Part shown: in pieces, positions 20,142 through 48,574 of the stretch
How positions within the stretch are numbered: position 1 is the first letter of the stretch
Layout: every line of letters begins with the position of its first letter
From: a bacterium
Lineage (GTDB): Bacteria > Patescibacteriota > UBA1384 > XYA2-FULL-43-10 > JAKAMI01
Reading direction: 5' to 3'
NCBI GenBank assembly: GCA_021812945.1
Contig: JAKAMI010000002.1
Location: 1,047-65,046 of the forward strand
Length of the DNA stretch: 64,000 nucleotides
Translations under genes and position numbers: made by a program
The notes under the pieces: model-generated
What the model saw: only the letters and a program-made list of their open reading frames with translations
What the model was told of the DNA's origin: nothing
Database searches by the model: none

Positions 20142-20148
20142 ACGTTTT

Positions 20149-20236: not shown

Positions 20237-20252
20237 AGAGAGGAGTTTTGTC

Positions 20253-21542: not shown

Positions 21543-21548
21543 GGTTGT

Positions 21549-21639: not shown

Positions 21640-21667
21640 AGATACTTAGCCAGTTCATAGGAAGAAA

Positions 21668-25636: not shown

Positions 25637-26044
25637 TACTAATACATCATTAGAGGATCGGTTCGTGGTCTTCGGGCCATTGAACCCAAGATTCTCTATA
25701 GTCTCAATTCGCGACTCCCTTCGCTGCCCGTCATTCTGAGCAATCCCAACTGTCATTCTGAACGAAGTAAAGAATCTAGCGAAGCGAACAGCATTCTTTC
25801 CCATCTGGTCCTAAGCTGTCGGTGTCGGTGTACTGCCTACGCCAAGACTCAGGGGTGGAGAAGAAGAATTATTTTTTGTACAACCTTTGTCTCTTGTTTT
25901 TCACCCCGAGGGTGGGTTTTGACTCCCTCGGGGTGGGGCAAAAGACAAGGTTGTACAAAATACCCGCCGGCCTTCGCGCCAGGCGGGAAAATACCCTACC
26001 CCGGGTAAGTTCTCCATCTTGTCGGGAGCCGAAGGAGGCAGAAA

Positions 26045-26503
26045 ATGGAAGAAAAGATCAAAAAGGTCGTTTTTGTTCTGCTCGCCGCGATCAACGCGGC
26101 GATGGCGGCCTCGTTTGAGGCCGCCCGTCAAGCGCGCATTGAGGCGCGTCTTGACCGGCAGCGGCAGACTATCAAGAAGATGGCGATGGCCTCGCTCACG
26201 CCCACCGAGTGGGCGTTGGCCGGCCGCATCTCGGGTTACTTGGAGTGCCCTGAAGTAGCATTTCAGGGTTGGTGGCAGTCGCTGGCCCATAACTGGGCCT
26301 GCCGGACTGCCCTTGATTCCGAGGGGAACTTCCGCGACCCCTCGGAATCACAAGAAGTCGCGGATGCTCTTGCCTGGTTGGGGTTTCCTAGCCAGGCGGC
26401 GTATGCCACGTCGATGGAGGTCCTCTGGGCCATCCATCGCGCGATGGCGTATGTAAAAGCCGGGCACGAAGGCTGGATCGTGCCGTCGGGTGGTTGTGAA
26501 TAG
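26045..26503 (+). CDS. Hypothetical protein in a GC-rich (about 65%) cassette
   Basis: Strong SD gaaggaggcagaaaATG. 152 aa, no known domain. Confidence 0.45.
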   Translation: MEEKIKKVVFVLLAAINAAMAASFEAARQARIEARLDRQRQTIKKMAMASLTPTEWALAGRISGYLECPEVAFQGWWQSLAHNWACRTALDSEGNFRDPSESQEVADALAWLGFPSQAAYATSMEVLWAIHRAMAYVKAGHEGWIVPSGGCE

Positions 26504-26696
26504 CTAACCGGCCAAGGGACCATTCCGCGCCCTAAAGATTCCGATGAAAATCGGAACGTGTCCGCCTTTAGCGGATGCGGCGGCGTTATTCCGGTGCCTC
26601 GTTCGCCATGGCGGACAAGCAGCCCGAGTTCGACCGGAAGACGATAACTGAGATGGTGGCTGCTAACTAGATTTGTGGCAGAAAGGAGGTGAAACG

Positions 26697-26927
26697 ATGA
26701 GTTCTTGGATCAGAATCTGTTCTGAATGTGGGGGGGAAGTTGTCGGGCAGGCGGGTTGCTACGCCTGCTCGACGGAGGCTACCGCCCGCAGGGGCGGCCA
26801 GCCAGAGCAGGGGCACCACCTCTGTTCTGTTTGGTCGGAGGCTCAAGCCTCCAGTGAAAAGTGGTATCCACTTTTCACGGAGCGTTCTGACAGGGCATGC
26901 GACTGTCCTGCCAGAAACCTCCGATAG
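26697..26927 (+). CDS. Small Cys-rich (zinc-ribbon-like) hypothetical protein
   Basis: SD aaggaggtgaaacgATG. CSECGG...CYACS pair. Confidence 0.4.
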   Translation: MSSWIRICSECGGEVVGQAGCYACSTEATARRGGQPEQGHHLCSVWSEAQASSEKWYPLFTERSDRACDCPARNLR

Positions 26928-27263
26928 CCTCCGGAGTCTGCAGGCTCCGAGGTTGTTAATCCTGCAGCGTAAGTCCGGTGTGCTCCTGTAGCCCGAGATT
27001 CGACCGGAATACGAAAGCTTAGGTGGCGGCTACGATTTGCAATCATACCCGGCCCCGACGTCAGTGTCGGGGCCAAAAGAACAGTTGAGCCGAAATCCAC
27101 ACCAGGAAAGTAGGCTCACCTTCACCCGCTAAGCGGGTCTGATGAGTCTTTGAAAATTAAGACGAAAAGGTGAGTTATCGCCAACCTGCCTTTAGGTTGC
27201 ACTCCTGTCCCGACGCCCCGATTTGCGTCGGGGGTCGGGAGCCACCTGAGGGCAGATTAGCCT

Positions 27264-27306
27264 AAAAAATCCTCGCGTTATAACCGTACCGCGGGGATTT
27301 TTTAGT
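27264..27306 (+). terminator. Intrinsic terminator
   Basis: aaaaaatcctcgcg-ttataaccgtac-cgcggggattttttag. Confidence 0.6.
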
Positions 27307-27319
27307 TTGGAGACCAGAC

Positions 27320-27462
27320 CTAATTTTAGTCTGTAGCGAAATATAGCTTGTTCTGTCATTCTGAACACAGTGAAGAATCTCTACCTGTAGAATAGATCCT
27401 TCGCAAGCTCAGGATGACAGAAATTAGCTTAGGATGACAAAATCAAACTTAAGGATGACAGA
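27320..27462. mobile_element. Truncated copy of a GTCAT-hairpin MITE (full copy with terminal inverted repeats at 60907-61050)
   Basis: Roughly 85% identical to 60917-61040. The left TIR agtctgtagc is present, the right TIR is missing, and the copy ends exactly at the junction with the duplicated gene tail. Confidence 0.6.
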
Positions 27463-28305: not shown

Positions 28306-28389
28306 TGTCAACCTCCTTTGGGAGTTGCTCAGCAATTGCTAAGCTAGCCCGAGACTAGCATAAGTACGAATACTAAACAATACCCAAGC

Positions 28390-29716
28390 GGCTCTATGTC
28401 AAGTGGTGTGGTAGTAGGAGACTGATCGGGATAAATGCCAGCAATGCTTTTCTGATGTAGTTATCTACGTTTCTGAATCCGTACGAAAGACGTTTGATTG
28501 TTTTTAGTTTGGTATTAACTCCTTCGGTGTAGCCGTTAGTGGTGAAACGATCGAAGTAAGCCAGAATCTCATTTTGCCAGCGCATCAACATTTTCAGAAG
28601 TTGCCTGGTCGGTTGATGATTGGAGCCTTTCATCTTGTTAGTCAGGATATTAAAGCTTAGTTCCGCGAGTGTTTTGTTGGGTATCTTGTAGATCCGGCGC
28701 AACTCTTCTTTACAACTCCAGAGCTCGCCTAATTCCGGATATGCTTTGTTAATCTCGTTTAAGGCGACTCGTTCGTTTGGTTTTAGATGTTCTTTCGGTT
28801 TGTCAAAGATGACTTTGGGTAGTTTAACTTTGTCAGTCCCCTGGATTAAAGTTCTTAAGTTAGAAAGTTGACGATTGGCTTCGGCAATTACATGGAAAGC
28901 ATCAACTACGATTGTAGCCCTAGGTAGCTCCCTCTTGATTGTTTGGTAGTAACGCCTGTCCATATCTATACAGACTTCAGTAATGGCTTCCTTGCGCGCG
29001 GCTGGTATGTCTTGAAGAAATTTCTCAACCGTAATCCGACTATCATCCGGTAAGATAGAGATCAGCTGGCGATTTGTGATATCGGTGAAGGTAGGCAACA
29101 TTTTCTGGCCGGAAAAACTATGACAATCTAGACCCATTGAAATTACAATCCCTTCCGGCCAGACACCAACCAGAGGGTTGATTTTGTCGTTTAAGATTTG
29201 TTGAATGGTGGTAAAGCTAGTCTCGGCTAAATCCTGCTGAGTTTTGAAACTGGTTGAGCCCAAGCCCTTGATTATCTGATCTGCGTAGACCAGAGAATAG
29301 TTCTTATTAAGTGGAATTGATTTGTGGCGGTCGGTGGTGATGTGACGACGCCTATCTTTTTTCTGGCACCACCAGCAGAAGAATGCCCTAGTTTTAACTC
29401 TAAGCATAATTAAATTGCCTTGCCAAAACATGTGCTTAACCCGTCTGGGTTTTAAGTGGCGGTTAAGAGTCGTGACGTAGCGTCCGCAGTCTCTACAATG
29501 GACACCTTTAGTTTTTGGTCTTACGGTGATCAACATAACTTTGCCGTTTATCTCCGTATTTTCAACATGGAACTCTTGCAGTTTGAACATCTTTTTGAAA
29601 CAATTCTCCATAGGTAGACTCCTTGTAGTTAAGTGATATTTCCTACAATCAGTCTACCTACTTTTGTTTTACGCATAAAGCGTAGCTAACCGTACCACAC
29701 TGTTTAGTATAGAGCC
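28390..29716 (-). mobile_element. ISL3-family insertion sequence
   Basis: Imperfect terminal inverted repeats of about 25 bp: ggctctatgtcaagtggtgtggtag at about 28390 and ggctctatactaaacagtgtggtac (reverse complement) at about 29690-29716. No clear direct repeats. Confidence 0.55.
28394..29611 (-). CDS. ISL3-family transposase
   Basis: N-terminal zinc finger (CRDCGRYV...CWWCQKK) and C-terminal DDE_Tnp_ISL3 signature FDRFTTNGYTEGVNTKLKTIKRLSYGFRNVDNYIRKALL. Confidence 0.85.
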   Translation of the reverse strand: MENCFKKMFKLQEFHVENTEINGKVMLITVRPKTKGVHCRDCGRYVTTLNRHLKPRRVKHMFWQGNLIMLRVKTRAFFCWWCQKKDRRRHITTDRHKSIPLNKNYSLVYADQIIKGLGSTSFKTQQDLAETSFTTIQQILNDKINPLVGVWPEGIVISMGLDCHSFSGQKMLPTFTDITNRQLISILPDDSRITVEKFLQDIPAARKEAITEVCIDMDRRYYQTIKRELPRATIVVDAFHVIAEANRQLSNLRTLIQGTDKVKLPKVIFDKPKEHLKPNERVALNEINKAYPELGELWSCKEELRRIYKIPNKTLAELSFNILTNKMKGSNHQPTRQLLKMLMRWQNEILAYFDRFTTNGYTEGVNTKLKTIKRLSYGFRNVDNYIRKALLAFIPISLLLPHHLT

Positions 29717-29856
29717 GGGCGGTTTACACCCCAATCCAAAAAACCCTTGACTAATTTCTGTCATGCTGAATTTATTTCAGCATCTTAAGACAAGTGCGTA
29801 ACATTTTGGGATTCTGAAACAAGTTCAGAATGACGAAAAGAAAAGTTTCCGGAATA

Positions 29857-30072
29857 CTACCTAGACCTCACAACCTCATTATACGCATTTATTAGCTCAT
29901 TTGCATCAGACTCATCAAGGGTTAGAATATAGTCCTGTTTTGTTAGGTTATCCTTCTCGGCTCCAGTAAAAATAAGACCGGTTTTGTTAGCAATTTGTTC
30001 TAACTGCTTCAAGGTCAGACGATTGAGTTTTTTTGCGAATGCCTCGTATTCTTTTTTAGTGAACGGTTTCAT
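29857..30072 (-). CDS. Small hypothetical protein
   Basis: 71 aa; its start overlaps the stop of the GNAT fragment. Confidence 0.35.
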   Translation of the reverse strand: MKPFTKKEYEAFAKKLNRLTLKQLEQIANKTGLIFTGAEKDNLTKQDYILTLDESDANELINAYNEVVRSR

Positions 30073-30541
30073 AGCCCACCCTTTTTCAATTGCATTTGGA
30101 GTTCATCTCCGTTTCCTCCGGTGACTAAGAACCCCATTTTTTCATAGAGTTTTATCGCCCCAGTGTTTGATTTGAAAACTTCCAAATTGATCTCTGTTAT
30201 ACCCCATTTGTAGGCTTTGTGAATTACATATTCCATAGCCTGTTTTCCGATTCCCAATCCCCAATAGTCTTTGTCGCCGATCATGATAAAGGCATTCGAA
30301 ACATGGGCTTTTAGGTCAATTTCAGTCAGACCGACCATTCCGACCGTTTTCCGATCGATGTTAATGGCCCAAAAAATTTATTCTCATTAGCTTTGTATCT
30401 TTTGAACCAATCTTGCTGTTCTGTTCTCAACTGTACGATCGACTCATCTCCAAAAACACCCAGAGCTACTCGGGGGTCAGTCAACCACTTGACTCGGGTT
30501 GGTACATCTTTAGCGGTGAATGGTCTAAATGAAATTTTCAT
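30069..30541 (-). pseudogene. GNAT-family N-acetyltransferase split by a frameshift in a homopolymer tract
   Basis: The N-terminal part (30541..30326, MKISFRPFTAKD...) and C-terminal part (30338..30069, with the GLGIGKQAMEYVI motif A) are in different frames around a tttttt/aaaaaa run near 30369. This could instead be a sequencing error. Confidence 0.5.
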
Positions 30542-30573: not shown

Positions 30574-31953
30574 TTACTCCTCGTGCCAGTTGACTATTTG
30601 GTAGCTTTTGCTCTTGGGAAAATAAGGCGGCGGAGTATAGAGGAGCCGGTTGTCGTAGTTGTAACCGGCATGGGCGAAACCCCAATAAACAATACCGCTG
30701 CTGGTCCATTGGAACTCTAATCCCCCTTGTTGGGTAATGGCGCCGTAAATATTCAAAGTACCCTTAAGGGGACCGGAAGACTGAAAATAGGCCCGGCCGT
30801 TTTTGGCCAGCATAGCGGCGTCGATGGTCAGGTCGTTGGGGCAGGTCGAAACGATGGGGATATCTTGGTTGGCAACCAACCCCAGCTTGGCAACGGAGTC
30901 GTTTTGAGCATAGGTGATATTGCCGTTAATAAAGATATTTTTACTTGAGACAAGAGTCATCTCCCGATTTTTGACTGTACCGTCGACCCAGACATTGTCG
31001 TCAAAAAACATGAGATTCCCGGCATATGCCTGGCTCGGAAGATAACTTTTTTCAATGTTTATTTGCCCGTAAGCCGCCGTATTACTCTTGTAACTACTGA
31101 CTTTAGTAATGCTGTATTGACTATCCGCCAGGGTTATGTGATAGCCCTGTTTGTTGCTATCGCCGTAGTATTGGTTTTGGGCTATCGCTTTGGACTTCAG
31201 ATCGTTAAAATCAATGTCGGCTAGATTGAACGGAGCAGCGCTATAGACTATCGGGGTCGTATCGAATTTACCCGGACCACCGGCACAGGGGCAAATACCG
31301 CCGGGGCAGTAAGAGTCACTGACCCATTTGGTGGTAAAAGTTGAGTCAATCGAGCAGGTTAGATTGGTTTTACCTTTGATCTCGCCGTAATTACGAATAC
31401 CTTTGTTCGAGGAGTTGACCCAGACGGGGCCGTTGATCACCTCCTGGGTATCGACATAAATCTCGTCGGTTAAAGAATTGATGAAAGCGTTGGCAAACGA
31501 GGGGATGGTCAGATCGGTCGTGATGGTTTTCCGAGTGGTGCTGCCGTTGACCGTTCCGGTAGATTTCAGTTTCACGATGTTGGTATCGTTGGTTGGATAG
31601 ATGAGGAGACTGTAATTACCTATGAGTTTGCCTGAGTTGTCGGTGTAATCATGAGAGTAAGGGCCGTAAGAACCATCCGGATTTAACTGCCGGCAGGCAT
31701 CGGCGGAATTGGCGCTGCAGTTGTCCCAAAAATCGTTCGGATTGTGCTCCAGATGCCAAAGATAATAGTTGATGCCGGCTTCGGCAATGTTGACTGCCGA
31801 AACCTGGCGGCTGTAGAGGCTGGAACGTTTGAGACTGGCGGAGACCATCGCCAGAAGCGCTACCGCCATGATTAAAAGTATGGTGGTAGCCATCAGAATC
31901 CAAGGGAGAAAAGTAGCAGATTTGAAAGGAGTTTTGAGTCTGATTGGTCTCAT
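30574..31953 (-). CDS. Large membrane-anchored secreted protein of the pilus operon (putative minor-pilin or tip-associated component)
   Basis: N-terminal TM helix, Asn/Thr/Ser-rich beta-rich body. Last gene of the T4P operon. Confidence 0.4.
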   Translation of the reverse strand: MRPIRLKTPFKSATFLPWILMATTILLIMAVALLAMVSASLKRSSLYSRQVSAVNIAEAGINYYLWHLEHNPNDFWDNCSANSADACRQLNPDGSYGPYSHDYTDNSGKLIGNYSLLIYPTNDTNIVKLKSTGTVNGSTTRKTITTDLTIPSFANAFINSLTDEIYVDTQEVINGPVWVNSSNKGIRNYGEIKGKTNLTCSIDSTFTTKWVSDSYCPGGICPCAGGPGKFDTTPIVYSAAPFNLADIDFNDLKSKAIAQNQYYGDSNKQGYHITLADSQYSITKVSSYKSNTAAYGQINIEKSYLPSQAYAGNLMFFDDNVWVDGTVKNREMTLVSSKNIFINGNITYAQNDSVAKLGLVANQDIPIVSTCPNDLTIDAAMLAKNGRAYFQSSGPLKGTLNIYGAITQQGGLEFQWTSSGIVYWGFAHAGYNYDNRLLYTPPPYFPKSKSYQIVNWHEE

Positions 31954-31972
31954 AAGCCAGATTAGTCTAATG

Positions 31973-32572
31973 TTAGAGGTTGTCTTTCAGATTTCGGATG
32001 TCGACCCGGGTTTTGGATTCCACCTCGCGGCTGGCGTATCGTCCGATCGCTTGGTTGCGAAGATCAATCTGGACCAGCCGGACTTTGGTCACATCGCAAG
32101 GAGTAGCCAGAGCGGCCCCGGTCGAGTCGAAGTAACTGAAGACGGGAGTGCTGTCGGAATTGGTTACATAGGTCGAGACGACCTGATCAACCGATTGGTC
32201 TGCCGGATAAGTAATCCCGCCAAGCTGATCGACGGCCGGCTGGATGGTGGATTTGCTAATTTGCTGCTGATTCTGATCCAGTCCGTAGCTGATTTTTTGC
32301 GCCGGGGAATCAATCGCTCCTTTGTAATAGTAAAAGGTCAATTGGTTCTTGTCGCAAAGTTCTACCGAAGTCGCCGCCTTAATCTCCGGCGTCAGTCTCG
32401 AAAAAGCATTGATTTGTTGGTCGGTCATTTCCAGCTTGAGCTGATTTATCTGATAGTTTTTGAGATTGGAGGTAAAAAATTGGCTGATTATCACCACTAA
32501 AATAGAAATTGCGGCGGCAGCTATCGAAATCTCGATCAGAGTGAAAGCGGATTTTGTTCTGGCTTTTATCAT
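31973..32572 (-). CDS. Type IV pilin-like protein (class III signal peptide)
   Basis: MIKARTKSAFTLIEISIAAAAISILVV prepilin N-terminus. Confidence 0.65.
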   Translation of the reverse strand: MIKARTKSAFTLIEISIAAAAISILVVIISQFFTSNLKNYQINQLKLEMTDQQINAFSRLTPEIKAATSVELCDKNQLTFYYYKGAIDSPAQKISYGLDQNQQQISKSTIQPAVDQLGGITYPADQSVDQVVSTYVTNSDSTPVFSYFDSTGAALATPCDVTKVRLVQIDLRNQAIGRYASREVESKTRVDIRNLKDNL

Positions 32573-32575
32573 AGT

Positions 32576-33910
32576 CTAGTTGCTGGTTATTTCAATCGCA
32601 TTATTCTTGAGGCTGATTTGGTTCAGATTATTGGTCAATTTCAGATCCCAAGAGCCGTTTGCCGCATTGGTCAAATCAAAAGAAATCGAGGCTGAGGAAG
32701 GAGTGGCATTTACGATGGTTCCCACGATGTCGGCTACACCGGTGTGCGCCAGTCTGGCCTCGGTTAAAGCATCAAGATGCGTGCCGGTAACCACCAGCTC
32801 GACACCGGCAGCCTTGTCCGGGTGTGCAGGCTTGATGTCGGTAACAGTGATGAAAGTGGCGGTATCACCGGTTAGAACGGTTGCGTGGACGGTCTGGCAC
32901 AGATTGGCCTTATAGTCATCGCTCCAACTGGTGATCGAGGGGGGACAGACTCCCGGGCAACCGCCGCCGCTTCCTCCGCCTCCAGAGGTGTAAAAAGCCT
33001 TATAAATCTGAAGCGCGGGAGTCAAGGTTTGATCCGTGGTTTGGAGGGTGGTTTCCACTTGAAGGTAGCGTTGTTGTACGACCACAAAAAGAGAAATCGA
33101 TGAGGCGTAAGGTATTGAGGCTGACCAAGCAGACCAATTTGACGAGTCGGGCGATGTTCTGAAACGAAAGCCAACTTGAGTCTTATCCGGAATGGTGGCA
33201 ACCGGCACGAAAGTATCCCAACTCTTAAAGGAGGGTGTACCGTCAATTTGGCTTGCGGCCGAGACGTGTGTTGCGGTCAATGGTTGCCCGTAAGCTTCAA
33301 GCTCGTATAAATTGGCCACCCATTGGGGCGCCGGCATGCCGCCGCCTTCCAGCTTGATCCTGAGATAGGAGGCGCTGACCGGAGGCGAAATGTCGTATGT
33401 CTGCCAACCTTCGTTTTTATAGCCCATAGTTGTGACTTGAAGAGAAAAGTTGACCCCATCGGTTGAAGTGTAGATGTAGGCCCCGCCGAGCAAGACCTCT
33501 CTGACTACGCGGAACTGATTGATGTTATAGGCTCCGTTCAGTTTGAGCGTCCAAAGCGCGGTCCCTCCACAGCCGACACCCGAACAAATGGTTCCGCCCC
33601 AAGCCGTGTCGATGTTGCCGTCGAAGACATTGGTCTTGTTTTCGTCATGCATGGTCACTGTAAGATTGGTGTTGTCAATATCATAAATCGTTTTCAGGTC
33701 AATTTTGGCGTTGCTCGGATTGATCCTAACGTCGCCGCCGATCGGCGGGTTTGGGTTGTTCAGGTCGGTGTTTACGTTTATTCCGGCTTGCCAATCACTT
33801 TTTGAATCCAGTGTGACCGAGCCTGTGCCGGCCGAAACCGGCAGGACCCGAGTGATCGCTCCCAGAAGAAGCAGGATCAGGACAATTTTGATAGAAGTAA
33901 CTTTTTTCAT
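32576..33910 (-). CDS. Secreted protein with F5/8 type C (discoidin) carbohydrate-binding domain, encoded among pilin genes
   Basis: Signal peptide MKKVTSIKIVLILLLLGAITRVLPVSA; NVFDGNIDTAWGG...QFRVV motif of discoidin domains. Confidence 0.55.
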   Translation of the reverse strand: MKKVTSIKIVLILLLLGAITRVLPVSAGTGSVTLDSKSDWQAGINVNTDLNNPNPPIGGDVRINPSNAKIDLKTIYDIDNTNLTVTMHDENKTNVFDGNIDTAWGGTICSGVGCGGTALWTLKLNGAYNINQFRVVREVLLGGAYIYTSTDGVNFSLQVTTMGYKNEGWQTYDISPPVSASYLRIKLEGGGMPAPQWVANLYELEAYGQPLTATHVSAASQIDGTPSFKSWDTFVPVATIPDKTQVGFRFRTSPDSSNWSAWSASIPYASSISLFVVVQQRYLQVETTLQTTDQTLTPALQIYKAFYTSGGGGSGGGCPGVCPPSITSWSDDYKANLCQTVHATVLTGDTATFITVTDIKPAHPDKAAGVELVVTGTHLDALTEARLAHTGVADIVGTIVNATPSSASISFDLTNAANGSWDLKLTNNLNQISLKNNAIEITSN

Positions 33911-33918
33911 TCTTTAAA

Positions 33919-34941
33919 CTAATTATTGGTATAGTTATACCTGTCGTGTTCGATGAGCGGAATGAGTATTTTTCCGTTGGCGTCCGTAGTTTTCCATTGA
34001 TCGTACTTGGATTTCGGGTCGGTGCAAAGCAACCGGGCGCTCTGCACTCTGATGGAGGTATTGGGCAGGGGATTTCCGTTGGCATCTTTGACCAAAATCT
34101 CCAAGTCGGTCAGACAGCGAATCTGCATTTGGATTGTAGTCACGGTTTGAACCCGGATAATCGGGTTGAGAGTAGCTCCCGAGGTATCGATAGCGACCGA
34201 ACAAAAGTTTTTGCTCAAAGTCGTGTCGGTGCTGTAATCTTGTTTGGTGACGCTGACTATATAGCTGTTGTCCTCGGCCGGGGGAAGCATCGGTACCATA
34301 ACTTGACCGTAGTCGTCGGTGTAGACGGTAATCCCTTCGGTCGGAAAACCGGAGGCGACAAGGGTCGGGTTGGTGATGGTAACTTTGGCTCCCTGGATGG
34401 GGACGTTGCCAATCTCGGGATTATCGACCACGTTGACAACCAGGATCCCGGTGTTAGAGGCAGTCTCGGCGGCTTTGGAGGCGATGTTGGTGGTGAGGTC
34501 GGAGAGCAGCTTGTTCTCAAGGCGGTTATAAACCGAGACTGTGACTTTTTTGTAGTCGATGGGCGACGTATCGGTATATGGTTGAGGATCGGTGGCCAGG
34601 TGGTCGTAGGGATCATCGAAATATCGGGCATCAATTTTGATGGTGAAGCGGAAACCGGCGTAATCCAGATCCTCGGAATCGAGCAGGTTTTTCTGGGGTA
34701 GAATCGGGCCGTGTTGAGTAGCAATGTCGTCGTAAGGCAAACTCCGAATCATCTCGATTCGATCGTTGGCCAGATTGGCGGCGACCACCCGCATCTGGGC
34801 ATAAGACGCCGAGCGCAAATTTGTCAGCATCAGACTCAAAATCGTCACTGCCACAACACTCAAAACGGCAAAGTCGATGATAACTTCGATCAGGGAAAAA
34901 CTCAGTCCTTTGTTTTGTTTAATGTGTTTAATCTTCGTCAT
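33919..34941 (-). CDS. Large pseudopilin/minor pilin-like protein
   Basis: KGLSFSLIEVIIDFAVLSVVAVTIL prepilin-type N-terminus followed by about 300 aa. Confidence 0.55.
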   Translation of the reverse strand: MTKIKHIKQNKGLSFSLIEVIIDFAVLSVVAVTILSLMLTNLRSASYAQMRVVAANLANDRIEMIRSLPYDDIATQHGPILPQKNLLDSEDLDYAGFRFTIKIDARYFDDPYDHLATDPQPYTDTSPIDYKKVTVSVYNRLENKLLSDLTTNIASKAAETASNTGILVVNVVDNPEIGNVPIQGAKVTITNPTLVASGFPTEGITVYTDDYGQVMVPMLPPAEDNSYIVSVTKQDYSTDTTLSKNFCSVAIDTSGATLNPIIRVQTVTTIQMQIRCLTDLEILVKDANGNPLPNTSIRVQSARLLCTDPKSKYDQWKTTDANGKILIPLIEHDRYNYTNN

Positions 34942-34947
34942 AATGTA

Positions 34948-35032
34948 CCGCGACCGCCACTGATCTATTCCACAGATTGTCCACAGATCTGCGCAGATCA
35001 GTGGAATTGATCTGTGGAGGTCACCGTTCGAC
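34948..35032. repeat. Interleaved palindromes (ccactgatc / tccacagatc) between pilC and the pseudopilin gene
   Basis: The same family recurs at 36255-36350. Confidence 0.55.
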
Positions 35033-35040
35033 TATTTATT

Positions 35041-36243
35041 TTACTGTGCTCCCACCAGACCGTAAATCGGTTGCAAAACGGCAATCAGCAAAAGGCCGAT
35101 GCCGGCGCCCAGGACAATCATCATCACCGGTTCTATCAGGCTGGAGAGGTTTTTGGTGATATTGGTCACGTCTCTTTCATAAAAATCGGCCAGGGTGGTG
35201 TAGACTTCATCCATTTTGCCGCTCTTCTCGCCGACCATGGTCAGCTGGTGAATCATCGAAGGGAACAGTTTGCTCTCTTTCAGCACCGCCGATAGCGCCT
35301 TGCCATTTTCAACCTCTTTGGAGATTTTCTCGATCTCCCGATGGTAAAGGACATTGGGAATAACGTCCTTGACCACTTTGAAAATCTTCAAAATCGGAAT
35401 TCCCGAAGCGGAAAGGCTGGCAAAGGTCCGGGCGAAGTTGGCCATATAGGATTTGGTGTAAAGGTTGCCGAAGATGGGCAGTTTCAGGAGTAATTTATCA
35501 AAAAAGAGCTTTCCGGAAGGAGTCCGGTGGAAAGCAACTAAGCCGGCGATCAAAGCAGCTAATCCGGCCAGGAGATAGTACCAATAGGCAGTCATCAGAT
35601 CTCCCAAACCCATAATGACCTTCGTAATCGCCGGCATCTCCACTCCGGAGTCGGCGAAAATGGATTTGAGTTTGGGCAGGATGAAGATTAGAACAAAGAC
35701 GGCTACCCCGATGAGCGCCACAGTGATAACGGCCGGATAAATCAAAGCACCGCGGACCTTGGCGACCAAGTCGTAAGTTTTATCCATTTGTTTGGCTTGA
35801 CGTTCCAGGACTTCGTCAAGCTTACCCGATTCTTCGCCGGAAGCCACGATGCTCAGGTAGACCGAATCGAAAATCTCCGGAAATTTGGCTAAAGCGGAGG
35901 ATAAGGTGCCGCCGCTTTCGACCTCGGGTATGATCTTTTCAAGCGCTTGGCCGAGGGCCTTGCTGTTGGTTTCCTCCTGCAGAGATTTGAGAATGGTAAC
36001 AATACCCAGACCCGAGCGGATCATGACGGCCATTTGCTGGGTAAAAACGATTTTTTCTTTGAGCGGGACTTTACTCTTAAAGATCGTCAAGTTTAAACTC
36101 AAACCCTTGCTCATCGGTTCAACTTTGGTGACGAACAAACCTTTTTTCAAAACCAAAGTGACGGCATGATCCTGCGCTGCCGCTTCAACCGTTCCCGATT
36201 CCTCTTTACCTTGGCGATCCTTGGCGCGATACTTGAATAGCAT
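35041..36243 (-). CDS. pilC: Type IV pilus assembly platform protein PilC (GspF family)
   Basis: ATG at 36243 (MLFKYRAKDRQGKEESG...), two T2SSF repeats, 3 TM segments. The ORF-track extension upstream covers the palindromic repeat. Confidence 0.85.
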   Translation of the reverse strand: MLFKYRAKDRQGKEESGTVEAAAQDHAVTLVLKKGLFVTKVEPMSKGLSLNLTIFKSKVPLKEKIVFTQQMAVMIRSGLGIVTILKSLQEETNSKALGQALEKIIPEVESGGTLSSALAKFPEIFDSVYLSIVASGEESGKLDEVLERQAKQMDKTYDLVAKVRGALIYPAVITVALIGVAVFVLIFILPKLKSIFADSGVEMPAITKVIMGLGDLMTAYWYYLLAGLAALIAGLVAFHRTPSGKLFFDKLLLKLPIFGNLYTKSYMANFARTFASLSASGIPILKIFKVVKDVIPNVLYHREIEKISKEVENGKALSAVLKESKLFPSMIHQLTMVGEKSGKMDEVYTTLADFYERDVTNITKNLSSLIEPVMMIVLGAGIGLLLIAVLQPIYGLVGAQ

Positions 36244-36254
36244 CAATCTCCTTC

Positions 36255-36350
36255 GTCGATAAATATTGAACGGCGACCCCCCACAGATCAATTCCACAGA
36301 TGAGGACAGGATAATCAGTGGATTATCAGTGGAGTTGATCTGTGGGGGGT
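36255..36350. repeat. Palindromic repeat (ccccacagatcaattccacag...ctgtggagttgatctgtgggg) between pilB and pilC
   Basis: Nested inverted repeats sharing the ccacagatc core with 34948-35032. Confidence 0.55.
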
Positions 36351-36364
36351 CGCTGGCTCAACTC

Positions 36365-38935
36365 CTAGTCTTTTGTTACCCTCCAAACCTCTTCCAGACT
36401 GGTAAGACCGTCGAGGGCCTTGTCGATGCCTTCCTGTTTCATAGTCAACATCCCGTCCGCTATGGCGGCCTCGGTGATCTTGGACGAGGTGGCCCGAGCC
36501 AGAAGCAGTTCCTGGATTTTCTGATTGACATCCAAGACTTCGTATATGCCAATACGTCCTTTGTAGCCTGTGCCGTGACAGTTGTCACAACCCTCTCCAC
36601 GGTAAAAAACCAGCTTCTTGCCCTCCCATTTTTTGCGGGCATCCTCCGGCATTTTGGCGATCTCTTTCTTGACTTCCTCGATCTCTTTGTCAGTAACTTT
36701 GAACTCCTTTTTGCAGTCTTTGCAGATTTTGCGAGCCAATCTTTGGGCGATAACAGTATTGAGCGATGAAGTAATCAGAAACGGTTCCACTCCCATATCG
36801 ATCAGACGAGGACCGGCGCCGGCAGAATCATTTGTGTGTAATGTCGACAGTACGACATGACCGGTCAAGGCGGCGTTTACCGCCATTTCAGCGGTGTCCC
36901 GGTCGCGAATCTCTCCGATCATCACCACATCGGGATCCTGGCGGAGGATGCTGCGCAGGCCATTGGCAAAAGTATAGTTGATATCAGGATTGACTTGACT
37001 CTGATTGATGCCCGGCATCTGATACTCGATCGGGTCCTCCAGCGTCACGATATTGACCGCGACGTCGAGCAGGCGGTCGATGATGGCGTAAAGCGTGGTT
37101 GTTTTGCCGCTTCCGGTAGGACCGGTGACCAGAGTCATGCCGTGGCTTTTGTGAATACTGTTTTCCACCACGTCAAAACCGCGTCCCCGCAGGCCAAGGT
37201 CTTTGAGGGAGAGAATACCGGTCGATTTGTCCAGGATTCTCATCACAATCTTTTCGCCGAAAGCGGTCGGCATGGTTGAGACTCGAAAGTCGACTTTGCG
37301 GTTGTCGATCATCATCTGAATACGCCCATCCTGAGGTAGGCGCGATTCGTCGATCTTGATTCCCGAAAGAATTTTGATCCTCGAGGTGACCGAAGCCTGG
37401 ACCTCTTTAGGGATGGTCACTTTTTTCTGCAGAACACCATCCTCGCGGAAGCGAACATCCAAACCGTTTTCCGTCGGTTCGATGTGAATGTCCGAAGCCA
37501 GTTCGCGCACGCCTCTTTTGATTAGAGAAGTGACAATCCGCGAGACGGGAGCGTCCTCGGTAATTTTCTCGATCTTTTTCTCGGTAATCTCTCTTTGCTC
37601 TTTGCCGTCTTTGGCCTCGTCTTCGCTTTGGCTGATTGCCTCCGAAACTTCCGCCTCGACACCGGAGTATTGATCCAGAATCCGGTTAAGATCGGTTTGC
37701 ACCGTCAGTTTGGGAATGACTTCCCGCCCCGTTTGTTTTTTGATAAGCTCGACGGTTTCCAGGTCCTCCGGATCAATCATAGCCACCGTGAGCACGCCGT
37801 CGTTATCGGCGACCGGAACTACCTGATATTGGCGGGCGATTTTTTCGGGCAGTAAAGATAAGATTTTTTTATCGACGGTGGTCTTGGAGAGGTCGATGAA
37901 CTGCACTCCGGCGGCTCCGGCGTAGGGATCGCCGGCCGAGCTTTTTGGAGAAATCTCCGGATTGTCTCTTAGCGCTTGTATTTCCGATGGAGTTATCTCA
38001 TCCGGCGAGACGTTGGAAAGGTTGGTTTTCTCAGGTTGAGCCGCAGGCTGGCCCTCGACGGCGGACGAGAGGATATCGTCTTTGGTTTTTTTAACGAAAT
38101 CTTCAAAACTTATCCGAGGGCGATTTTGGGATTTGGTAATCTCGCCGATCTCATTCTCGGTCAGACTGGCCGGTTTTTCTAAATCGGCATCCGGTTTCTT
38201 GGCTTCGTTAAGCTCGGCTACCGCTACGTTGTCCGGTTGAGCGTCGGATTCGGGCGTGTCTTTGATCGGGAGCGATTGTTCCGCCAACTCTTTAAAGCTG
38301 ATGGGGGCCTGAACTTTCTCGTTGTTAACTTTCTCGTTGTTCTCGGCGAGACGATCCGCGGATTTATGATCTTCCGCTTTCAACTTCAAATCACCGGCAT
38401 CAAAAGAGGCAACCTCTCCTTCTGGTTTCGAAGGCTCAGAGTGATGAATCTTGACCTGTTCCACGGCTTTTGCCGGCTCAAGGTTACGAACAAAAATCTC
38501 ATGGTCTTTTTTGTCCGGCTCGCGGCGGTTGTTCGAGGTTGTCTTCGCTTCCGGCTCGGGAGCGTTTTTGTTGACATGTTTTTTGACCTGCGGGCTGGGG
38601 TGCCACTTGATGACATTGGTTGGAAGCATCACAATCTTATGGCCGCGGCCCCTGGGGTCCCGGATGGTTTTAGAGGGATATTTGTGAGTCAAAAAAGATC
38701 CGAAATTGGAAAAAATCAGTTTCCCCCCGTCTCTCAAAGTCTGCCCAAGACCGTCAATGAAAGCTTTGACGATCTTTTTGGCTTTTTTTTGCGAAATCCT
38801 TTCAGCTCTGGCTAAAGCTTTGATCAGGTCTTCAGTATTCAATTTGCCCCTCCCGACCGCAAGGCGGTCGCCCCCTCGCGAAATTACGAATAAAACACAA
38901 AAATACAAAAGCGCGAATAATTCAATCAACCCCAA
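36365..38935 (-). CDS. pilB: Type IV pilus assembly ATPase PilB (GspE family) fused to an N-terminal HU/IHF-like DNA-binding domain
   Basis: The C-terminal 570 aa carry the GSPII_E N-domain, Walker A VTGPTGSGKTTTLYA and the tetracysteine CDNCHGTGYKGRIGIY. Residues about 33-125 (NTEDLIKALARAERISQKKAKKIVKAFIDGLGQTLRDGGKLIFSNFGSFLTHKYPSKTIRDPRGRGHKIVMLPTNVIKWHPSPQVKK) align across their whole length with HU (HBsu). The likely true start is an internal TTG near 38842 preceded by GGGAGGGG. The frame is continuous with no stop between the HU and PilB parts. Confidence 0.7.
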   Translation of the reverse strand: MGLIELFALLYFCVLFVISRGGDRLAVGRGKLNTEDLIKALARAERISQKKAKKIVKAFIDGLGQTLRDGGKLIFSNFGSFLTHKYPSKTIRDPRGRGHKIVMLPTNVIKWHPSPQVKKHVNKNAPEPEAKTTSNNRREPDKKDHEIFVRNLEPAKAVEQVKIHHSEPSKPEGEVASFDAGDLKLKAEDHKSADRLAENNEKVNNEKVQAPISFKELAEQSLPIKDTPESDAQPDNVAVAELNEAKKPDADLEKPASLTENEIGEITKSQNRPRISFEDFVKKTKDDILSSAVEGQPAAQPEKTNLSNVSPDEITPSEIQALRDNPEISPKSSAGDPYAGAAGVQFIDLSKTTVDKKILSLLPEKIARQYQVVPVADNDGVLTVAMIDPEDLETVELIKKQTGREVIPKLTVQTDLNRILDQYSGVEAEVSEAISQSEDEAKDGKEQREITEKKIEKITEDAPVSRIVTSLIKRGVRELASDIHIEPTENGLDVRFREDGVLQKKVTIPKEVQASVTSRIKILSGIKIDESRLPQDGRIQMMIDNRKVDFRVSTMPTAFGEKIVMRILDKSTGILSLKDLGLRGRGFDVVENSIHKSHGMTLVTGPTGSGKTTTLYAIIDRLLDVAVNIVTLEDPIEYQMPGINQSQVNPDINYTFANGLRSILRQDPDVVMIGEIRDRDTAEMAVNAALTGHVVLSTLHTNDSAGAGPRLIDMGVEPFLITSSLNTVIAQRLARKICKDCKKEFKVTDKEIEEVKKEIAKMPEDARKKWEGKKLVFYRGEGCDNCHGTGYKGRIGIYEVLDVNQKIQELLLARATSSKITEAAIADGMLTMKQEGIDKALDGLTSLEEVWRVTKD

Positions 38936-39338
38936 TTATACCCCAATCGATAGGAAAATAAACGGATTATGATCTTATTGTATAATTAAGTAGTTAGGGA
39001 CTGCATATTTTCCTAGCCTCGATAGTCTAAGTTATTTATGACCCACTTTTCTTGTATAATTTTAGGGCTGGTCGACGATCCAATGTAAAAAAATGCTTTT
39101 TCGTCCGTTTGTTTTTCTCTCGGCCACCCACTCCGTACCCTGCCTTCCGCACGAGCGACTCTCTAACGTCGTCCCTCGGCTCCAGGCGCCGGCCTTCGTA
39201 AAACAAACGATCTCAACGCATTTTTGTCATTATTATTTAGACGAGCTAACCAGGTTCTTAAAACCAACTTTACAAACTTTATTACTTTTTACTTTATAAC
39301 TTCATGAACTTTTAACTTTATAAATTTCAACTGATTCT

Positions 39339-42772: not shown

Positions 42773-42980
42773 ATCCCAAAGAAAAAAGGGAGGTAACCAC
42801 ACGGATCTTGACACAGATGAAACACAGATAGCACATTAACAATGAGGTCCCGAAATAAATTCGGGATGACAATATCGAAAAAGTGTCTGGAGGGACAGCT
42901 TTCGCTAAGTCGAAAGTTCGTAAAGTTACAAAGTTTGTAAAGTTACCATGATGAATCCCTCCGGCAGAGGGATTTTTTGG
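42773..42980 (+). ncRNA. Candidate small RNA of about 200 nt (promoter to intrinsic terminator)
   Basis: Bounded by the promoter above and the terminator aatccctccggcagagggattttttgg (42955-42980). No plausible ORF inside. Confidence 0.3.
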
Positions 42981-43522
42981 TAGGAGAGATGGGGATATCG
43001 GTTTGCCCACCCGATAAACACTAAGCATTTTATAAATCGTTAAAAGAAGTGGTTTGTAAATAGTTTAGTCCCCAGCTCTCCCATCGAAATAAGTTAAAAG
43101 TTGAAAGTTATAAAGTAACGAGTAAACTAATAACAGAAACAAAAAAACAGAAATTCAGAAAATCGAAACAAACAGAAAATCAGAAAAGAGCACATTGACA
43201 AAAGGATGGGAAAAAATAGGGAAGTTGCAAAAAGCAACCTTAGTGTAAAATACAATTTTATATTAGGGATGCCACAAAGCTAGAGATCCTTCGCCGATTC
43301 TTTCAGAATCGCTCAGGATTTCGCTAAAAGCGAAACTTTGCGACACCCCTAATGGGCGTAAGCTTTACGACCGGGTCATAATTTAAAATTATATTATCCC
43401 GACAAGTCGATTACCAGTTTGCGCCCAAACCAAGAAACATCCAGCAATGAGGGTGTTTTTTGGTTTAGAAAATCAAATTGGTCTAATTAGACTAATTGGT
43501 CAAATTGGTCTAATATTCAGGT

Positions 43523-48548: not shown

Positions 48549-48574
48549 ATATAGAGGTCGCTAAGGAGGGGATT

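What the first reader, a model, noticed from the sequence alone, without database searches (positions are those of the whole stretch)
30574..36350. Type IV pilus operon with a discoidin-domain protein among the pilins and palindromic repeats between its genes
Gene order pilB-pilC-(340 aa pseudopilin)-(444 aa F5/8 type C lectin-like)-(199 aa pilin)-(459 aa secreted protein). The discoidin-domain protein is a plausible pilus-associated carbohydrate-binding adhesin, which would suit attachment to a host cell by an epibiont. Two related palindromes (34948-35032, 36255-36350; core ccacagatc) occupy the pilB-pilC and pilC-pilin junctions and could be operator sites or RNA structures regulating operon stoichiometry.
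Basis: partly seen in the sequence, partly recalled or inferred. Interest (0 to 1): 0.55.

Follow-up and report, generated by a model that had tools for sequence, protein, structure and literature searches.

The report
Pilus operon, lectin protein, dispersed palindromes
This is a real type IV pilus gene cluster from a small Patescibacteria-like bacterium that carries a secreted sugar-binding (discoidin-fold) protein, probably the pilus adhesin, but the two palindromes around pilC belong to a genome-wide population of short palindromic repeats and are not dedicated pilus switches.

Summary
On the minus strand lie HU-PilB (36365-38935), PilC (35041-36243), a 340-aa pilin-like protein, a 444-aa F5/8-type-C protein, a 199-aa prepilin and a 459-aa protein. 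Two related palindromes (hairpins of -59 and -41 kcal/mol) fill the pilB-pilC and pilC-pilin gaps.

The discoidin fold is confirmed (Pfam above threshold; AF2 pLDDT 81; Foldseek hits to F-lectin, factor VIII C domains, CBM32, discoidin I). The protein has a Sec-type signal peptide. Its C-terminal 127 aa are the C-terminal domain of a modular minor pilin that is a single gene in relatives. In another relative the same slot holds a Kelch propeller. A PilY1/PilX-like tip adhesin is therefore plausible, and it parallels published lectin-like PilX1/PilX2 of Saccharibacteria.

The regulatory reading of the palindromes is not supported. I catalogued 42 palindrome/repeat loci in the window (11 self-BLAST families). 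They occupy 21 of 41 intergenic gaps of 60 nt or more. Fifteen lie inside called genes; insert positions were checked against solved homologues for recG, tsaD and rmlD. Among 10 related lineages the pilB-pilC slot holds a long palindrome in 4, from at least three sequence families. A solo arm of the same superfamily lies at 42.8 kb. Best reading: REP/RPE/MITE-like dispersed repeats with by-product effects on the transcript.

The parts
36365..38935 (-). HU/IHF-like domain fused to the PilB/GspE-type pilus extension ATPase (856-aa ORF; public gene calls give 854 aa)
   Evidence: Pfam Bac_DNA_binding aa 33-122 (53 bits), MshEN aa 343-427, T2SSE aa 459-852 (431 bits) in one ORF. NCBIfam PilB/GspE models hit but below their equivalog cut-offs. 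The same fusion is called in L011, L013, L027, L028, L029, L031 and L032.
36259..36362 (.). J1 palindromic repeat element in the pilB-pilC gap (core arms 36273-36301 and 36325-36353)
   Evidence: 29-nt arms, 93% complementary (I2). Sense-strand hairpin -59.1 kcal/mol, z = -7.6. Built of CCACWGAT units. Identical in 3 further same-species contigs.
35041..36243 (-). PilC/GspF-type platform protein (400 aa from ATG 36243)
   Evidence: Pfam T2SSF x2, 201 bits. Public gene calls give 400 aa. Graded homologues at 80-53% identity lie in syntenic loci.
34946..35039 (.). J2 palindromic repeat element in the pilC-340aa gap; the same element as J1 in opposite orientation
   Evidence: Core 34952-35022, 22 of 26 bp. 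Hairpin -41.0 kcal/mol, z = -5.1. 43-nt inverted match to J1 including the flank ATAAATAnTnGAACGG (I1). The 3' arm ends 5-10 nt before the ATG of the 340-aa gene. This slot is empty in 8 relatives.
33919..34941 (-). 340-aa pilin-like protein (prepilin-like leader MTKIKHIKQNKG/LSFSLIE; Ig/CarboxypepD_reg-like body)
   Evidence: Motif scan. Weak PilV/GspI N-terminal hits below cut-off. 60% identical to aa 20-339 of the 472-aa pilin P0149.
32576..33910 (-). 444-aa secreted discoidin-fold protein: signal peptide, F5/8 type C domain (about aa 70-200), second beta domain (about 205-310), Gly linker, C-terminal Ig-like domain (318-444)
   Evidence: Pfam F5_F8_type_C 35.2 bits, above GA 28.2. AF2 pLDDT 81.2. 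Foldseek PDB hits: 3cqo E = 3.9e-7, factor VIII, CBM32 4a42_A TMt 0.73, discoidin I. C-terminal domain 45-47% identical to the C-termini of pilins P0149 and L010-462aa.
31973..32572 (-). 199-aa prepilin-type protein (leader ...KSA/FTLIE)
   Evidence: NCBIfam TIGR02532 18.8 bits, above cut-off 16.3. Motif scan. Orthologues of 198-201 aa in relatives.
30574..31953 (-). 459-aa conserved last gene of the cassette; N-terminal membrane anchor with a PilX_N-like motif (AEAGINYYLW)
   Evidence: No Pfam or NCBIfam hit. 37% identical over its full length to the 467-aa protein at the same position in L011.
42795..42835 (+). Solo arm of the CACAGAT superfamily (GGTAACCACACGGATCTTGACACAGATGAAACACAGAT) in the dnaB-downstream spacer
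   Evidence: Regex scan, sequence and alignment A6. By my count from A6 it is about 85% identical to the left arm of the L010 pilB-pilC palindrome.

Best explanation
The locus is a genuine type IV pilus (T4aP-like) cluster of a Patescibacteria-like organism. It comprises HU-PilB, PilC and a four-gene minor-pilin/tip cassette.

The 444-aa protein is exported by the Sec pathway. It carries a discoidin (F5/8 type C, CBM32, F-lectin-like) domain. It arose when a signal-peptide-plus-discoidin module was inserted into a modular minor-pilin gene just before that gene's C-terminal domain. The discoidin protein therefore now carries a pilin-derived domain. It most likely joins the pilus tip complex as the glycan-binding adhesin, in a PilY1/PilX-like role (inferred, not shown).

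The two palindromes are two copies, in opposite orientation, of a roughly 95-100-bp REPIN/MITE/RPE-like dispersed repeat. Its arms consist of a conserved end (TTGAAYGGYGACC) followed by three CACWGAT units. It is one of at least 11 short-repeat families that have colonised intercistronic gaps and, in frame, housekeeping ORFs of this genome.

The palindromes are co-transcribed with the operon and would form very stable hairpins. Likely by-product effects (inferred) are protection of the upstream pilB and pilC message from 3' exonucleases or creation of processing sites, and, for J2, occlusion of the ribosome-binding region of the 340-aa gene. They are not dedicated, pilus-specific regulators.
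For: Operon and proteins.

Discoidin fold.

Gene fission: the 340-aa protein matches aa 20-339 of pilin P0149 (60% identity), and aa 318-444 of the discoidin protein match aa 346-472 of P0149 (45%) and the C-terminus of the L010 462-aa pilin (47%).

Variable slot in relatives: a 433-aa discoidin homologue in L011, a Kelch propeller in L013, and an unsplit 462-472-aa pilin in L010 and L028.

Published parallel: lectin-like PilX1 (beta-jelly roll) and PilX2 (beta-propeller) without PilD leaders in Nanosynbacter lyticus TM7x (PMC11623550).

Palindromes as dispersed repeats:
- 16 gapless palindromes of at least 17 bp, against 0-2 in 10 shuffles.
- 11 self-BLAST repeat families at 31 loci.
- 42 catalogued loci covering 3.5 kb. 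They occupy 21 of 41 gaps of 60 nt or more, and 15 lie inside called genes.
- Palindromes coincide with insertions relative to solved homologues: RecG aa 281-310 and 587-604, RmlD aa 215-262, TsaD aa 170-203.
- Family turnover at orthologous junctions. The pilB-pilC slot holds CACAGAT units in the window and in L010, AT-rich TCTAAA units in L011, another sequence in L013, and no long palindrome in L015, L027, L028, L029, L031 and L032. The TACAAAT family sits at dnaB-dnaX in L011 but at polysaccharide-gene junctions here. A GTCATTCC-family palindrome occupies the pilC-downstream slot in L032.
- Arms of the CACAGAT family occur at non-pilus sites: window 42795-42835, after rpmA (L019) and before gyrA (L009).
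Against: No transposase or RAYT that could move the elements was found in the window, and no target-site duplication is evident.

No presence/absence polymorphism could be examined, because all same-species contigs are identical.

Within the window the exact CCACAGATC subfamily is confined to the two sides of pilC. One foreign arm lies upstream of a gene with a weak PilX_N-like N-terminus (L024). Some link to pilus genes is therefore not excluded.

Four of ten lineages keep a long hairpin in the pilB-pilC gap, which could reflect selection for structure.

Repeat sequences are more conserved between genomes than a neutral spacer should be: by my count from the sequences, the TACAAAT arm is about 85% identical between genomes whose PilC is 67% identical. 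This implies sequence-specific recognition by something unknown.

Adhesin function, glycan binding and pilus association of the 444-aa protein are inferred only.
Confidence: 0.62

Rival explanations
1. The palindromes are selected intercistronic RNA hairpins that tune operon stoichiometry. They would act as differential mRNA decay barriers, RNase III sites or translational (de)coupling devices between pilB, pilC and the minor-pilin cassette.
For: The sense-strand hairpins are very stable (-59 and -41 kcal/mol). They fill the whole gap between a stop codon and the next ribosome-binding site. A long hairpin occupies the pilB-pilC gap in 4 lineages with at least three unrelated sequences, which could mean structure is conserved while sequence drifts. 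J2 covers the ribosome-binding region of the 340-aa gene.
Against: Six of ten related lineages have no long palindrome at pilB-pilC, and in most of them the genes abut or overlap. The J2 slot is empty in 8 of the 9 relatives for which it could be read. The antisense strand of J1 folds better than the sense strand (-64.0 against -59.1 kcal/mol). Unit centres give regular A.A or T.T mismatches rather than compensatory pairs. Identical architectures sit inside ORFs, where no such role applies.
Confidence: 0.17
2. The CACWGAT units are binding sites (iteron or operator arrays at 11-13-nt spacing) for a DNA-binding protein. Candidates are a regulator with direct-repeat recognition, DnaA (box TTATCCACA) or the HU/IHF-like domain of PilB. 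The palindromes would then be double arrays.
For: Three-unit arrays occur alone, without an inverted partner, in intergenic DNA: window 42795-42835, L019 and L024. A 3+2 array lies upstream of gyrA in a Berkelbacteria MAG. The unit sequence is conserved across genomes while its centre base is free. Some units resemble DnaA boxes (for example TAATCCACT, 7 of 9 by my count). HU-type proteins favour distorted or cruciform DNA (established knowledge).
Against: No unit lies in the 403-nt pilB-dnaX promoter region. Conservation extends beyond the units to the element ends (TTGAAYGGYGACC or GTAACC), as expected for a repeat element. About ten other families with the same build but other unit sequences would each need their own protein. 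Cumulative GC skew shows no origin-like turn near 35-36 kb. HU-PilB is present in lineages without the palindromes.
Confidence: 0.12
3. The palindromes are intrinsic terminators or attenuators that reduce read-through from pilB into pilC and from pilC into the minor pilins.
For: They are strong hairpins placed directly after stop codons.
Against: Neither stem is followed by a U-tract, and the terminator scan reports none at either site. Stems of 26-29 bp with loops of 19-23 nt are unlike canonical terminators.
Confidence: 0.05
4. The two inverted copies flanking pilC are recombination sites: an attC-like cassette boundary or an invertible pilC segment.
For: J1 and J2 are inverted relative to each other. 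The extended flank ATAAATAnTnGAACGG lies on the pilC side of both (I1).
Against: All six contigs of the species show one orientation. No integrase or invertase gene lies in the window. The ends (TTGA...TCAA) do not match the attC R''/R' core pattern on one strand (my inspection). PilC is a conserved core gene at this position in all relatives.
Confidence: 0.03

Closest known systems
Lectin-like non-canonical 'minor pilins' PilX1 and PilX2 of Nanosynbacter lyticus TM7x (Saccharibacteria), and PilY1 of Pseudomonas and Myxococcus
   Same: A large protein encoded among minor pilins. It has no PilD-type leader and carries a beta-jelly-roll lectin-like domain (PilX1) or a beta-propeller (PilX2, PilY1). 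It is proposed as the pilus tip adhesin for host glycans (PMC11623550). Here the slot holds a discoidin jelly roll, and in relative L013 it holds a Kelch propeller.
   Different: The domain here is F5/8 type C (CBM32-like), not L-type-lectin-like. The protein carries a C-terminal domain that is part of a modular pilin in relatives, so it arose by gene fission or insertion. No experimental data exist.
Modular type IV pilins with grafted lectin or adhesion modules (Streptococcus sanguinis PilB and PilC)
   Same: An adhesion or lectin module is combined with a pilin scaffold (PMC8179133, listed). The relatives' 462-472-aa pilins are modular.
   Different: Here the lectin module is on a separate Sec-exported polypeptide, not fused to the pilin N-terminal helix.
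REP/REPIN elements (REP doublets forming hairpins) of Gammaproteobacteria
   Same: Short extragenic palindromes of roughly 80-100 nt. They occur in several families per genome, as singlets and as inverted doublets. They sit between genes of operons, and their sequence is conserved across related genomes. REPs are known to stabilise upstream mRNA (established knowledge; review PMC10969869, listed, not read).
   Different: No RAYT transposase was found. No GTAG/CTAC-plus-small-hairpin organisation is present. The arms are made of 3 tandem 7-nt units, not a REP stem-loop. Other families here insert in frame into ORFs.
Rickettsia palindromic elements (RPEs)
   Same: Palindromic repeats of roughly 100-150 nt in many families, found in intergenic DNA and inserted in frame into protein-coding genes of a reduced genome (established knowledge; Delihas review PMC2229807, listed, not read). 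The in-frame behaviour is shown here for RecG, TsaD and RmlD.
   Different: A different phylum and unrelated sequences. The CCACAGATC family itself was seen only between genes.
Correia/NEMIS elements of Neisseria (MITEs)
   Same: Elements of roughly 100-150 bp with terminal inverted repeats, co-transcribed inside operons. Their hairpins are RNase III targets and alter mRNA stability (established knowledge).
   Different: No TA target duplication and no IHF site were demonstrated here. No parent insertion sequence is known. The ISL3 copy in the window has unrelated inverted repeats.

Membership tests
Type IV pilus (T4aP-like) gene cluster | PilB/GspE-family extension ATPase | tested here: met
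   Pfam T2SSE 431 bits plus MshEN. NCBIfam PilB/GspE models hit strongly but below their equivalog cut-offs.
Type IV pilus (T4aP-like) gene cluster | PilC/GspF platform protein | tested here: met
   Pfam T2SSF, two repeats, 201 bits.
Type IV pilus (T4aP-like) gene cluster | Proteins with a prepilin-type leader and hydrophobic N-terminal helix (G/A|F-T-L-I-E) | tested here: met
   The 199-aa protein scores TIGR02532 18.8 bits, above the 16.3 cut-off. The 340-aa protein has KG/LSFSLIE. No major pilin was found in the window.
Type IV pilus (T4aP-like) gene cluster | PilD prepilin peptidase and PilM/N/O alignment proteins | tested here: not met
   None is called in the 64-kb window. PilM/N/O follow the cassette in relatives L010, L011, L013 and L028. 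Here GNAT fragments and an ISL3 element follow instead. These genes may lie elsewhere in the genome.
Discoidin / F5/8 type C / CBM32 domain | Sequence match to the family profile above the curated threshold | tested here: met
   PF00754 35.2 bits against GA 28.2, aa 91-189.
Discoidin / F5/8 type C / CBM32 domain | Eight-stranded jelly-roll fold superposable on solved members | tested here: met
   AF2 pLDDT above 90 over most of aa 70-200. Foldseek: 3cqo E = 3.9e-7; 4a42_A TMt 0.73, rmsd 3.1 over 127 columns; discoidin I 2w94; factor VIII C domains.
Discoidin / F5/8 type C / CBM32 domain | Carbohydrate or ligand binding by the apical loops | not testable with these tools
   Needs glycan arrays or co-structures.
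REP/REPIN | Short palindromic extragenic repeats in multiple copies, as singlets and inverted doublets | tested here: met
   Doublets at J1 and J2. Singlets at window 42795-42835, L019 and L024.
REP/REPIN | Cognate RAYT (Y1 transposase) and a GTAG-flanked REP stem-loop | tested here: not met
   No Y1_Tnp gene appears among the window's gene calls. The arms are tandem units without an internal stem-loop. The rest of the genome was not available.
RPE-like in-frame palindromic elements | Copies inserted in frame in protein-coding genes without disrupting them | tested here: inconclusive
   Met for other families in the window (RecG, TsaD, RmlD). Not observed for the CCACAGATC family, whose 3 window copies are all intergenic.
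MITE | Terminal inverted repeats plus target-site duplication and a related autonomous insertion sequence | tested here: inconclusive
   Terminal inverted repeats are present. No clear duplication at the ends. The only insertion sequence in the window (ISL3, 28389-29717) has unrelated GGCTCT inverted repeats.
Intrinsic terminator | GC-rich stem followed by a U-tract | tested here: not met
   No site is reported at J1 or J2. No T-run follows the stems.
Operon-specific operator | Motif at the operon's promoter and restricted to the regulon | tested here: not met
   No motif lies in 38936-39338. Family arms occur at dnaB-downstream, rpmA and gyrA contexts.
TIGR array (TIGR-Tas) | Alternating 8-12-nt edge and loop repeats separated by 9-nt spacers, 5-15 units, next to a Nop-domain Tas gene | tested here: not met
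   Units abut without variable 9-nt spacers, and no Tas gene is present. Definition taken from PMC12045711.

The most novel reading that the evidence does not exclude
The CACWGAT-unit modules, and by extension the other tandem-unit palindromes, are not passive selfish DNA. They are sequence-specifically recognised 'punctuation' elements of this Patescibacteria lineage. A host protein would bind them as DNA cruciforms or RNA hairpins to set PilB:PilC:minor-pilin output. One candidate is the HU/IHF-like domain that is fused to PilB throughout the clade. This would link a pilus ATPase directly to nucleic-acid structure in its own operon.
Probability: 0.07. Interest if true: 0.75.

Novelty: new member of a known kind. 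Interest (0 to 1): 0.42.

Why it matters
The pilus part adds a concrete case to the emerging picture that episymbiotic Patescibacteria equip type IV pili with interchangeable lectin-type tip proteins. Here that is a discoidin domain, with a Kelch propeller in a relative. It also shows a clear evolutionary route: a secreted lectin module dropped into a modular pilin gene and split it.

The palindromes matter mainly as a caution, because they look like operon-specific regulators when only one locus is read. In this genome about 5% of the window is made of palindromic or short dispersed repeats. They sit at half of the larger intergenic gaps and also in frame inside essential genes. That behaviour is best known from Rickettsia palindromic elements, and my library searches found no description of it in Patescibacteria. 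Such repeats can break assemblies, inflate protein lengths and mislead annotation.

Tried and rejected
- **Single-sequence AF2 of the 444-aa protein** failed (pLDDT 34). The word-indexed homologue search found only the protein itself. The profile version found 3 proteins. The exhaustive representative search gave 272 relatives, and the alignment built from them (A3) gave a usable model.
- **Genome, metagenome and viral scans** with CCACWGATCWAYTCCACWGAT returned few hits, mostly chance matches (L007, L008, L017, L018/L022/L030, L020, L021, L023). The source genome is not in the scanned genome set, so a whole-genome census was not possible.
- **Rfam:** nothing at J1 or J2 or anywhere else except two tRNAs. 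Nothing in L009, L019 or L024.
- **TIGR-Tas array:** rejected.
- **oriC or DnaA-box cluster:** rejected. There is no GC-skew turn, no dnaA in the window, and only a few units approach TTATCCACA.
- **Sigma-70-like promoter inside the elements:** not supported. The scan found fewer promoter-like sites than in shuffles, and none in the elements. One 9-of-12 match ends at the pilC stop just upstream of J2.
- **attC or invertible segment:** rejected (see rival explanations).
- **ISL3-derived MITE:** rejected.
- **Strain polymorphism test:** uninformative, because all same-species contigs are 99.97-100% identical.
- **Taxonomic naming:** cluster look-up and accession search gave no names. The Patescibacteria assignment rests on the names attached to PilC homologues at about 40% identity and on gene content.

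Full report
**1. Observation**

The minus strand carries six genes in a row:
- an 856-aa ORF at 36365-38935;
- PilC at 35041-36243;
- a 340-aa ORF at 33919-34941;
- a 444-aa ORF at 32576-33910;
- a 199-aa ORF at 31973-32572;
- a 459-aa ORF at 30574-31953.

Pfam assigns T2SSE plus MshEN to the first ORF and T2SSF to the second. It assigns F5_F8_type_C to the 444-aa protein at 35.2 bits, above the 28.2-bit cut-off. NCBIfam places the 199-aa protein above the cut-off of the prepilin N-terminal domain model. A six-frame motif scan finds prepilin-like leaders only in the 199-aa and 340-aa proteins.

Both junction palindromes exist.
- J1 has 29-nt arms that are 93% complementary, at 36273-36301 and 36325-36353.
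- J2 has its core at 34952-35022.
- CCACAGATC occurs four times in 64 kb, always inside these elements, against 0.40 expected.
- As RNA the sense strands fold at -59.1 and -41.0 kcal/mol, with z-scores of -7.6 and -5.1.
- J2 read on the minus strand aligns along its whole length with J1 read on the plus strand. They are therefore one roughly 95-100-nt element in opposite orientations (I1, D8, D9).

**2. The pilus cluster and its relatives**

Exact-protein look-ups place the locus on MAG contigs GCA_027460745.1 and GCA_021842745.1 and on ENA and Logan assemblies. All of these have identical junctions.

PilC homologues at 80-53% identity lead to nine further lineages. Where the flanking DNA is held, they share the synteny dnaB-dnaX, then divergently (HU-)pilB-pilC, a minor-pilin cassette and pilM/N/O. 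In the window the cassette is followed by GNAT fragments and an intact ISL3 element at 28389-29717, which has its own inverted repeats. No pilM/N/O, pilD or major pilin lies in the 64 kb.

**3. The discoidin protein**

The N-terminus (MKK...LPVSA/G) reads as a Sec signal peptide, not a prepilin leader. This is my inspection of the sequence.

An exhaustive profile search finds 272 relatives. Many are proteins of about 330-350 aa that match aa 25-308, and others are giant multi-domain proteins. With an alignment of 26 of these, AlphaFold2 gives mean pLDDT 81.2. Foldseek against the PDB returns the following:
- F-lectin 3cqo, E = 3.9e-7;
- factor V and factor VIII C domains;
- CBM32 modules, for example 4a42_A with target TM-score 0.73 and rmsd 3.1;
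- discoidin I and II;
- neuropilin b1b2;
- the N-terminal domain of galactose oxidase.

Context adds more. The 340-aa protein is 60% identical to aa 20-339 of a 472-aa pilin (P0149, on the L028 contig). Residues 318-444 of the discoidin protein are 45-47% identical to the C-terminal domain of that pilin and of the L010 462-aa pilin. In this lineage, and in L011 (333 aa plus 433 aa), a signal-peptide-plus-discoidin module was therefore inserted into a modular minor-pilin gene ahead of its last domain. In L013 the same slot holds a 459-aa Kelch propeller.

This variable, non-pilin, lectin-type slot parallels PilY1. It also parallels the published lectin-like PilX1 and PilX2 of Saccharibacteria (PMC11623550). 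Pilus association and glycan binding are inferred, not shown.

**4. The palindromes are not special to this operon**

An inverted-repeat search over the whole window and reading of the sequences reveal many long palindromes whose arms are also built of short tandem units.
- A 'TACAAAT' family has six copies. Five lie at junctions of the rhamnose and polysaccharide genes and one lies between ksgA and an Nramp gene.
- A 'GTCATCCTGA' family is present in several copies.
- An 'AAAGACAGTCTTC' family is present in several copies.
- A palindrome fills the dnaX-dnaB gap.
- Others occur at further junctions.

The counts are as follows.
- There are 16 gapless palindromes of at least 17 bp, against 0-2 in ten shuffles, and 9 of at least 20 bp, against none.
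- Self-BLAST gives 11 repeat families at 31 loci.
- A combined catalogue has 42 loci covering 3.5 kb. They occupy 21 of 41 intergenic gaps of 60 nt or more, and 15 loci lie inside called genes.

The intragenic copies coincide with insertions relative to solved homologues.
- RecG has extra segments at aa 281-310 (the palindrome at 54736-54809) and aa 587-604 (the palindrome at 55644-55688). It has two further inserts that carry another repeat family.
- RmlD has a 48-aa insert that begins at the palindrome 11749-11816.
- TsaD is 482 aa against about 337 aa in solved homologues. It has about five inserts, one of which is the palindrome at 3911-4020.

This is the behaviour described for Rickettsia palindromic elements.

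**5. Comparative test at the pil junctions**

The pilB-pilC gap gives this pattern:
- a long hairpin with the same CACAGAT units in L010 (PilC 80% identical; -60.9 kcal/mol);
- an AT-rich palindrome of another family in L011;
- yet another sequence in L013;
- no long palindrome in L015, L027, L028, L029, L031 and L032, where in most cases the genes abut or overlap.

The pilC-downstream gap carries a palindrome only here and in L032. In L032 it belongs to the GTCATTCC family, at -63 kcal/mol.

Families also swap slots. The TACAAAT family sits at dnaB-dnaX in L011. Patchy presence with family turnover fits repeated colonisation of permissive gaps. It does not fit a conserved regulator.

**6. The CACAGAT family outside pilus junctions**

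A solo arm at window 42795-42835, in the dnaB-downstream spacer, is about 85% identical (my count from alignment A6) to the L010 J1 arm. Collection scans found arms with the same end and units in three other places:
- after rpmA (L019);
- upstream of a gene with a weak PilX_N-like N-terminus (L024);
- as a 3+2 unit array upstream of gyrA in a Berkelbacteria MAG (L009).

No unit lies in the pilB promoter region. No terminator-like or convincing promoter-like site coincides with J1 or J2.

**7. Mechanism**

Shown:
- sequence, symmetry and folding energy of the elements;
- copy distribution;
- in-frame inserts;
- comparative patchiness.

Inferred: the elements are REP/REPIN/RPE/MITE-like dispersed repeats. 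J1 and J2 are transcribed within the operon. Their hairpins probably act as by-product decay barriers or processing sites. J2 probably also occludes the ribosome-binding region of the 340-aa gene, because its 3' arm ends 5-10 nt before the ATG and no separate Shine-Dalgarno sequence is visible.

Unknown: the mobilising enzyme. It is also unexplained why the arms are tandem units with a free central base, which produces regular mismatches.

**8. Rivals and novelty**

Rivals considered were dedicated stoichiometry hairpins, protein-binding iteron arrays, terminators and recombination sites. They are weighed in the rival entries. TIGR arrays, an oriC cluster and an ISL3-derived MITE were rejected.

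Lectin-type pilus tip proteins in Patescibacteria are already published. REP/RPE-like repeats are a known kind. Library searches found no description of such repeats in Patescibacteria, nor of the HU-PilB fusion. That is weak negative evidence.

**Verdict.** The adhesin reading is plausible and strengthened. The pilus-specific palindrome reading is not supported.

Noticed in passing
window 36365-38935 (-); also L011 7096-9843, L013 7476-9857, L027 1486-3975, L028 7557-9995, L029 229-2793, L031 260-2710, L032 1132-3567: An HU/IHF-like DNA-binding domain (PF00216, aa 33-122) is fused through a long low-complexity linker to the N-terminus of PilB in a single ORF. The fusion is conserved in 8 of the 9 lineages with a complete PilB N-terminus (L010 is cut by its contig end) and is absent in L015. 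No paper describing it was found.
   Followed up: partly
window 53883-56282 (recG), 3408-4856 (tsaD), 11437-12456 (rmlD), 44112-46187 (uvrD), 47393-48499 (ksgA-like): Palindromic or dispersed repeats are inserted in frame in housekeeping genes. RecG has about 4 inserts, TsaD about 5 (482 aa against about 337) and RmlD one of 48 aa. One family (GTCATTCCxGCGAAAGCxGGAATCCAG...GGGATGAC) encodes VIPAKAGIQ...GSxIKSGMT in UvrD, KsgA and twice in RecG. The UvrD and KsgA copies were not checked against solved homologues.
   Followed up: partly
window 12461-12575, 14917-15050, 15913-16021, 20141-20241, 21541-21649, 48459-48549; L011 5032-5129: The 'TACAAAT' palindrome family has six copies of about 87 nt. 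Its ends read CTCCTTCGCG.../...CGCGAAGGAG, so whichever way it is inserted its 3' end provides a Shine-Dalgarno-like GAAGGAG 6-19 nt before the next start codon (rmlD, UDP-glucose dehydrogenase). The same family sits at dnaB-dnaX in a genome whose PilC is only 67% identical.
   Followed up: partly
window 42975-43089; L011 3200-3316; L013 443-603; L015 4292-4391: A conserved structured element lies downstream of dnaB. It has a closing stem of about 20 bp (TTTTGATGGGAGAGCTGGGG...CCCCATCTCTCCxACCAAAA) and an inner hairpin with 3 compensatory pairs across four lineages. There is no Rfam match, so it may be an undescribed small RNA.
   Followed up: partly
window about 25800-27350: A stretch with 55% GC (against about 47% elsewhere) has exceptionally strong local folding; 110-nt windows reach -58 to -68 kcal/mol. 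It contains one 152-aa ORF with no family hit and no Rfam match. It may be foreign or structured-RNA-rich DNA next to the ISL3 element.
   Followed up: no
window 28389-29717 and 29857-30338: An intact ISL3-family insertion sequence (405-aa transposase, 25-nt inverted repeats starting GGCTCT) lies next to a GNAT acetyltransferase split into 89-aa and 71-aa ORFs. This is where relatives carry further pilin genes and pilM/N/O, which suggests the distal part of the pilus cluster was rearranged here.
   Followed up: partly
window 43523-44089 and 57258-57761 (and the gene at the end of L001): There are several genes of the PF05635 family (23S rRNA intervening-sequence protein, four-helix-bundle proteins). 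From memory, not tested: this family also includes the Avd accessory proteins of diversity-generating retroelements. No reverse transcriptase was seen in the window.
   Followed up: no
L010 2775-2800, L011 9975-10000: In relatives the pilC ribosome-binding site sits in a small CCTCC...GGAGG (anti-SD/SD) hairpin just after the junction palindrome. The window lacks the anti-SD half.
   Followed up: no
L011 16579-20121: A 1180-aa protein in the relative's pilus cluster also has a weak F5/8 type C match (aa 91-185, E = 0.0026, below the cut-off) plus CarboxypepD_reg domains. If real, this is a second discoidin-type protein associated with the same pilus system.
   Followed up: no
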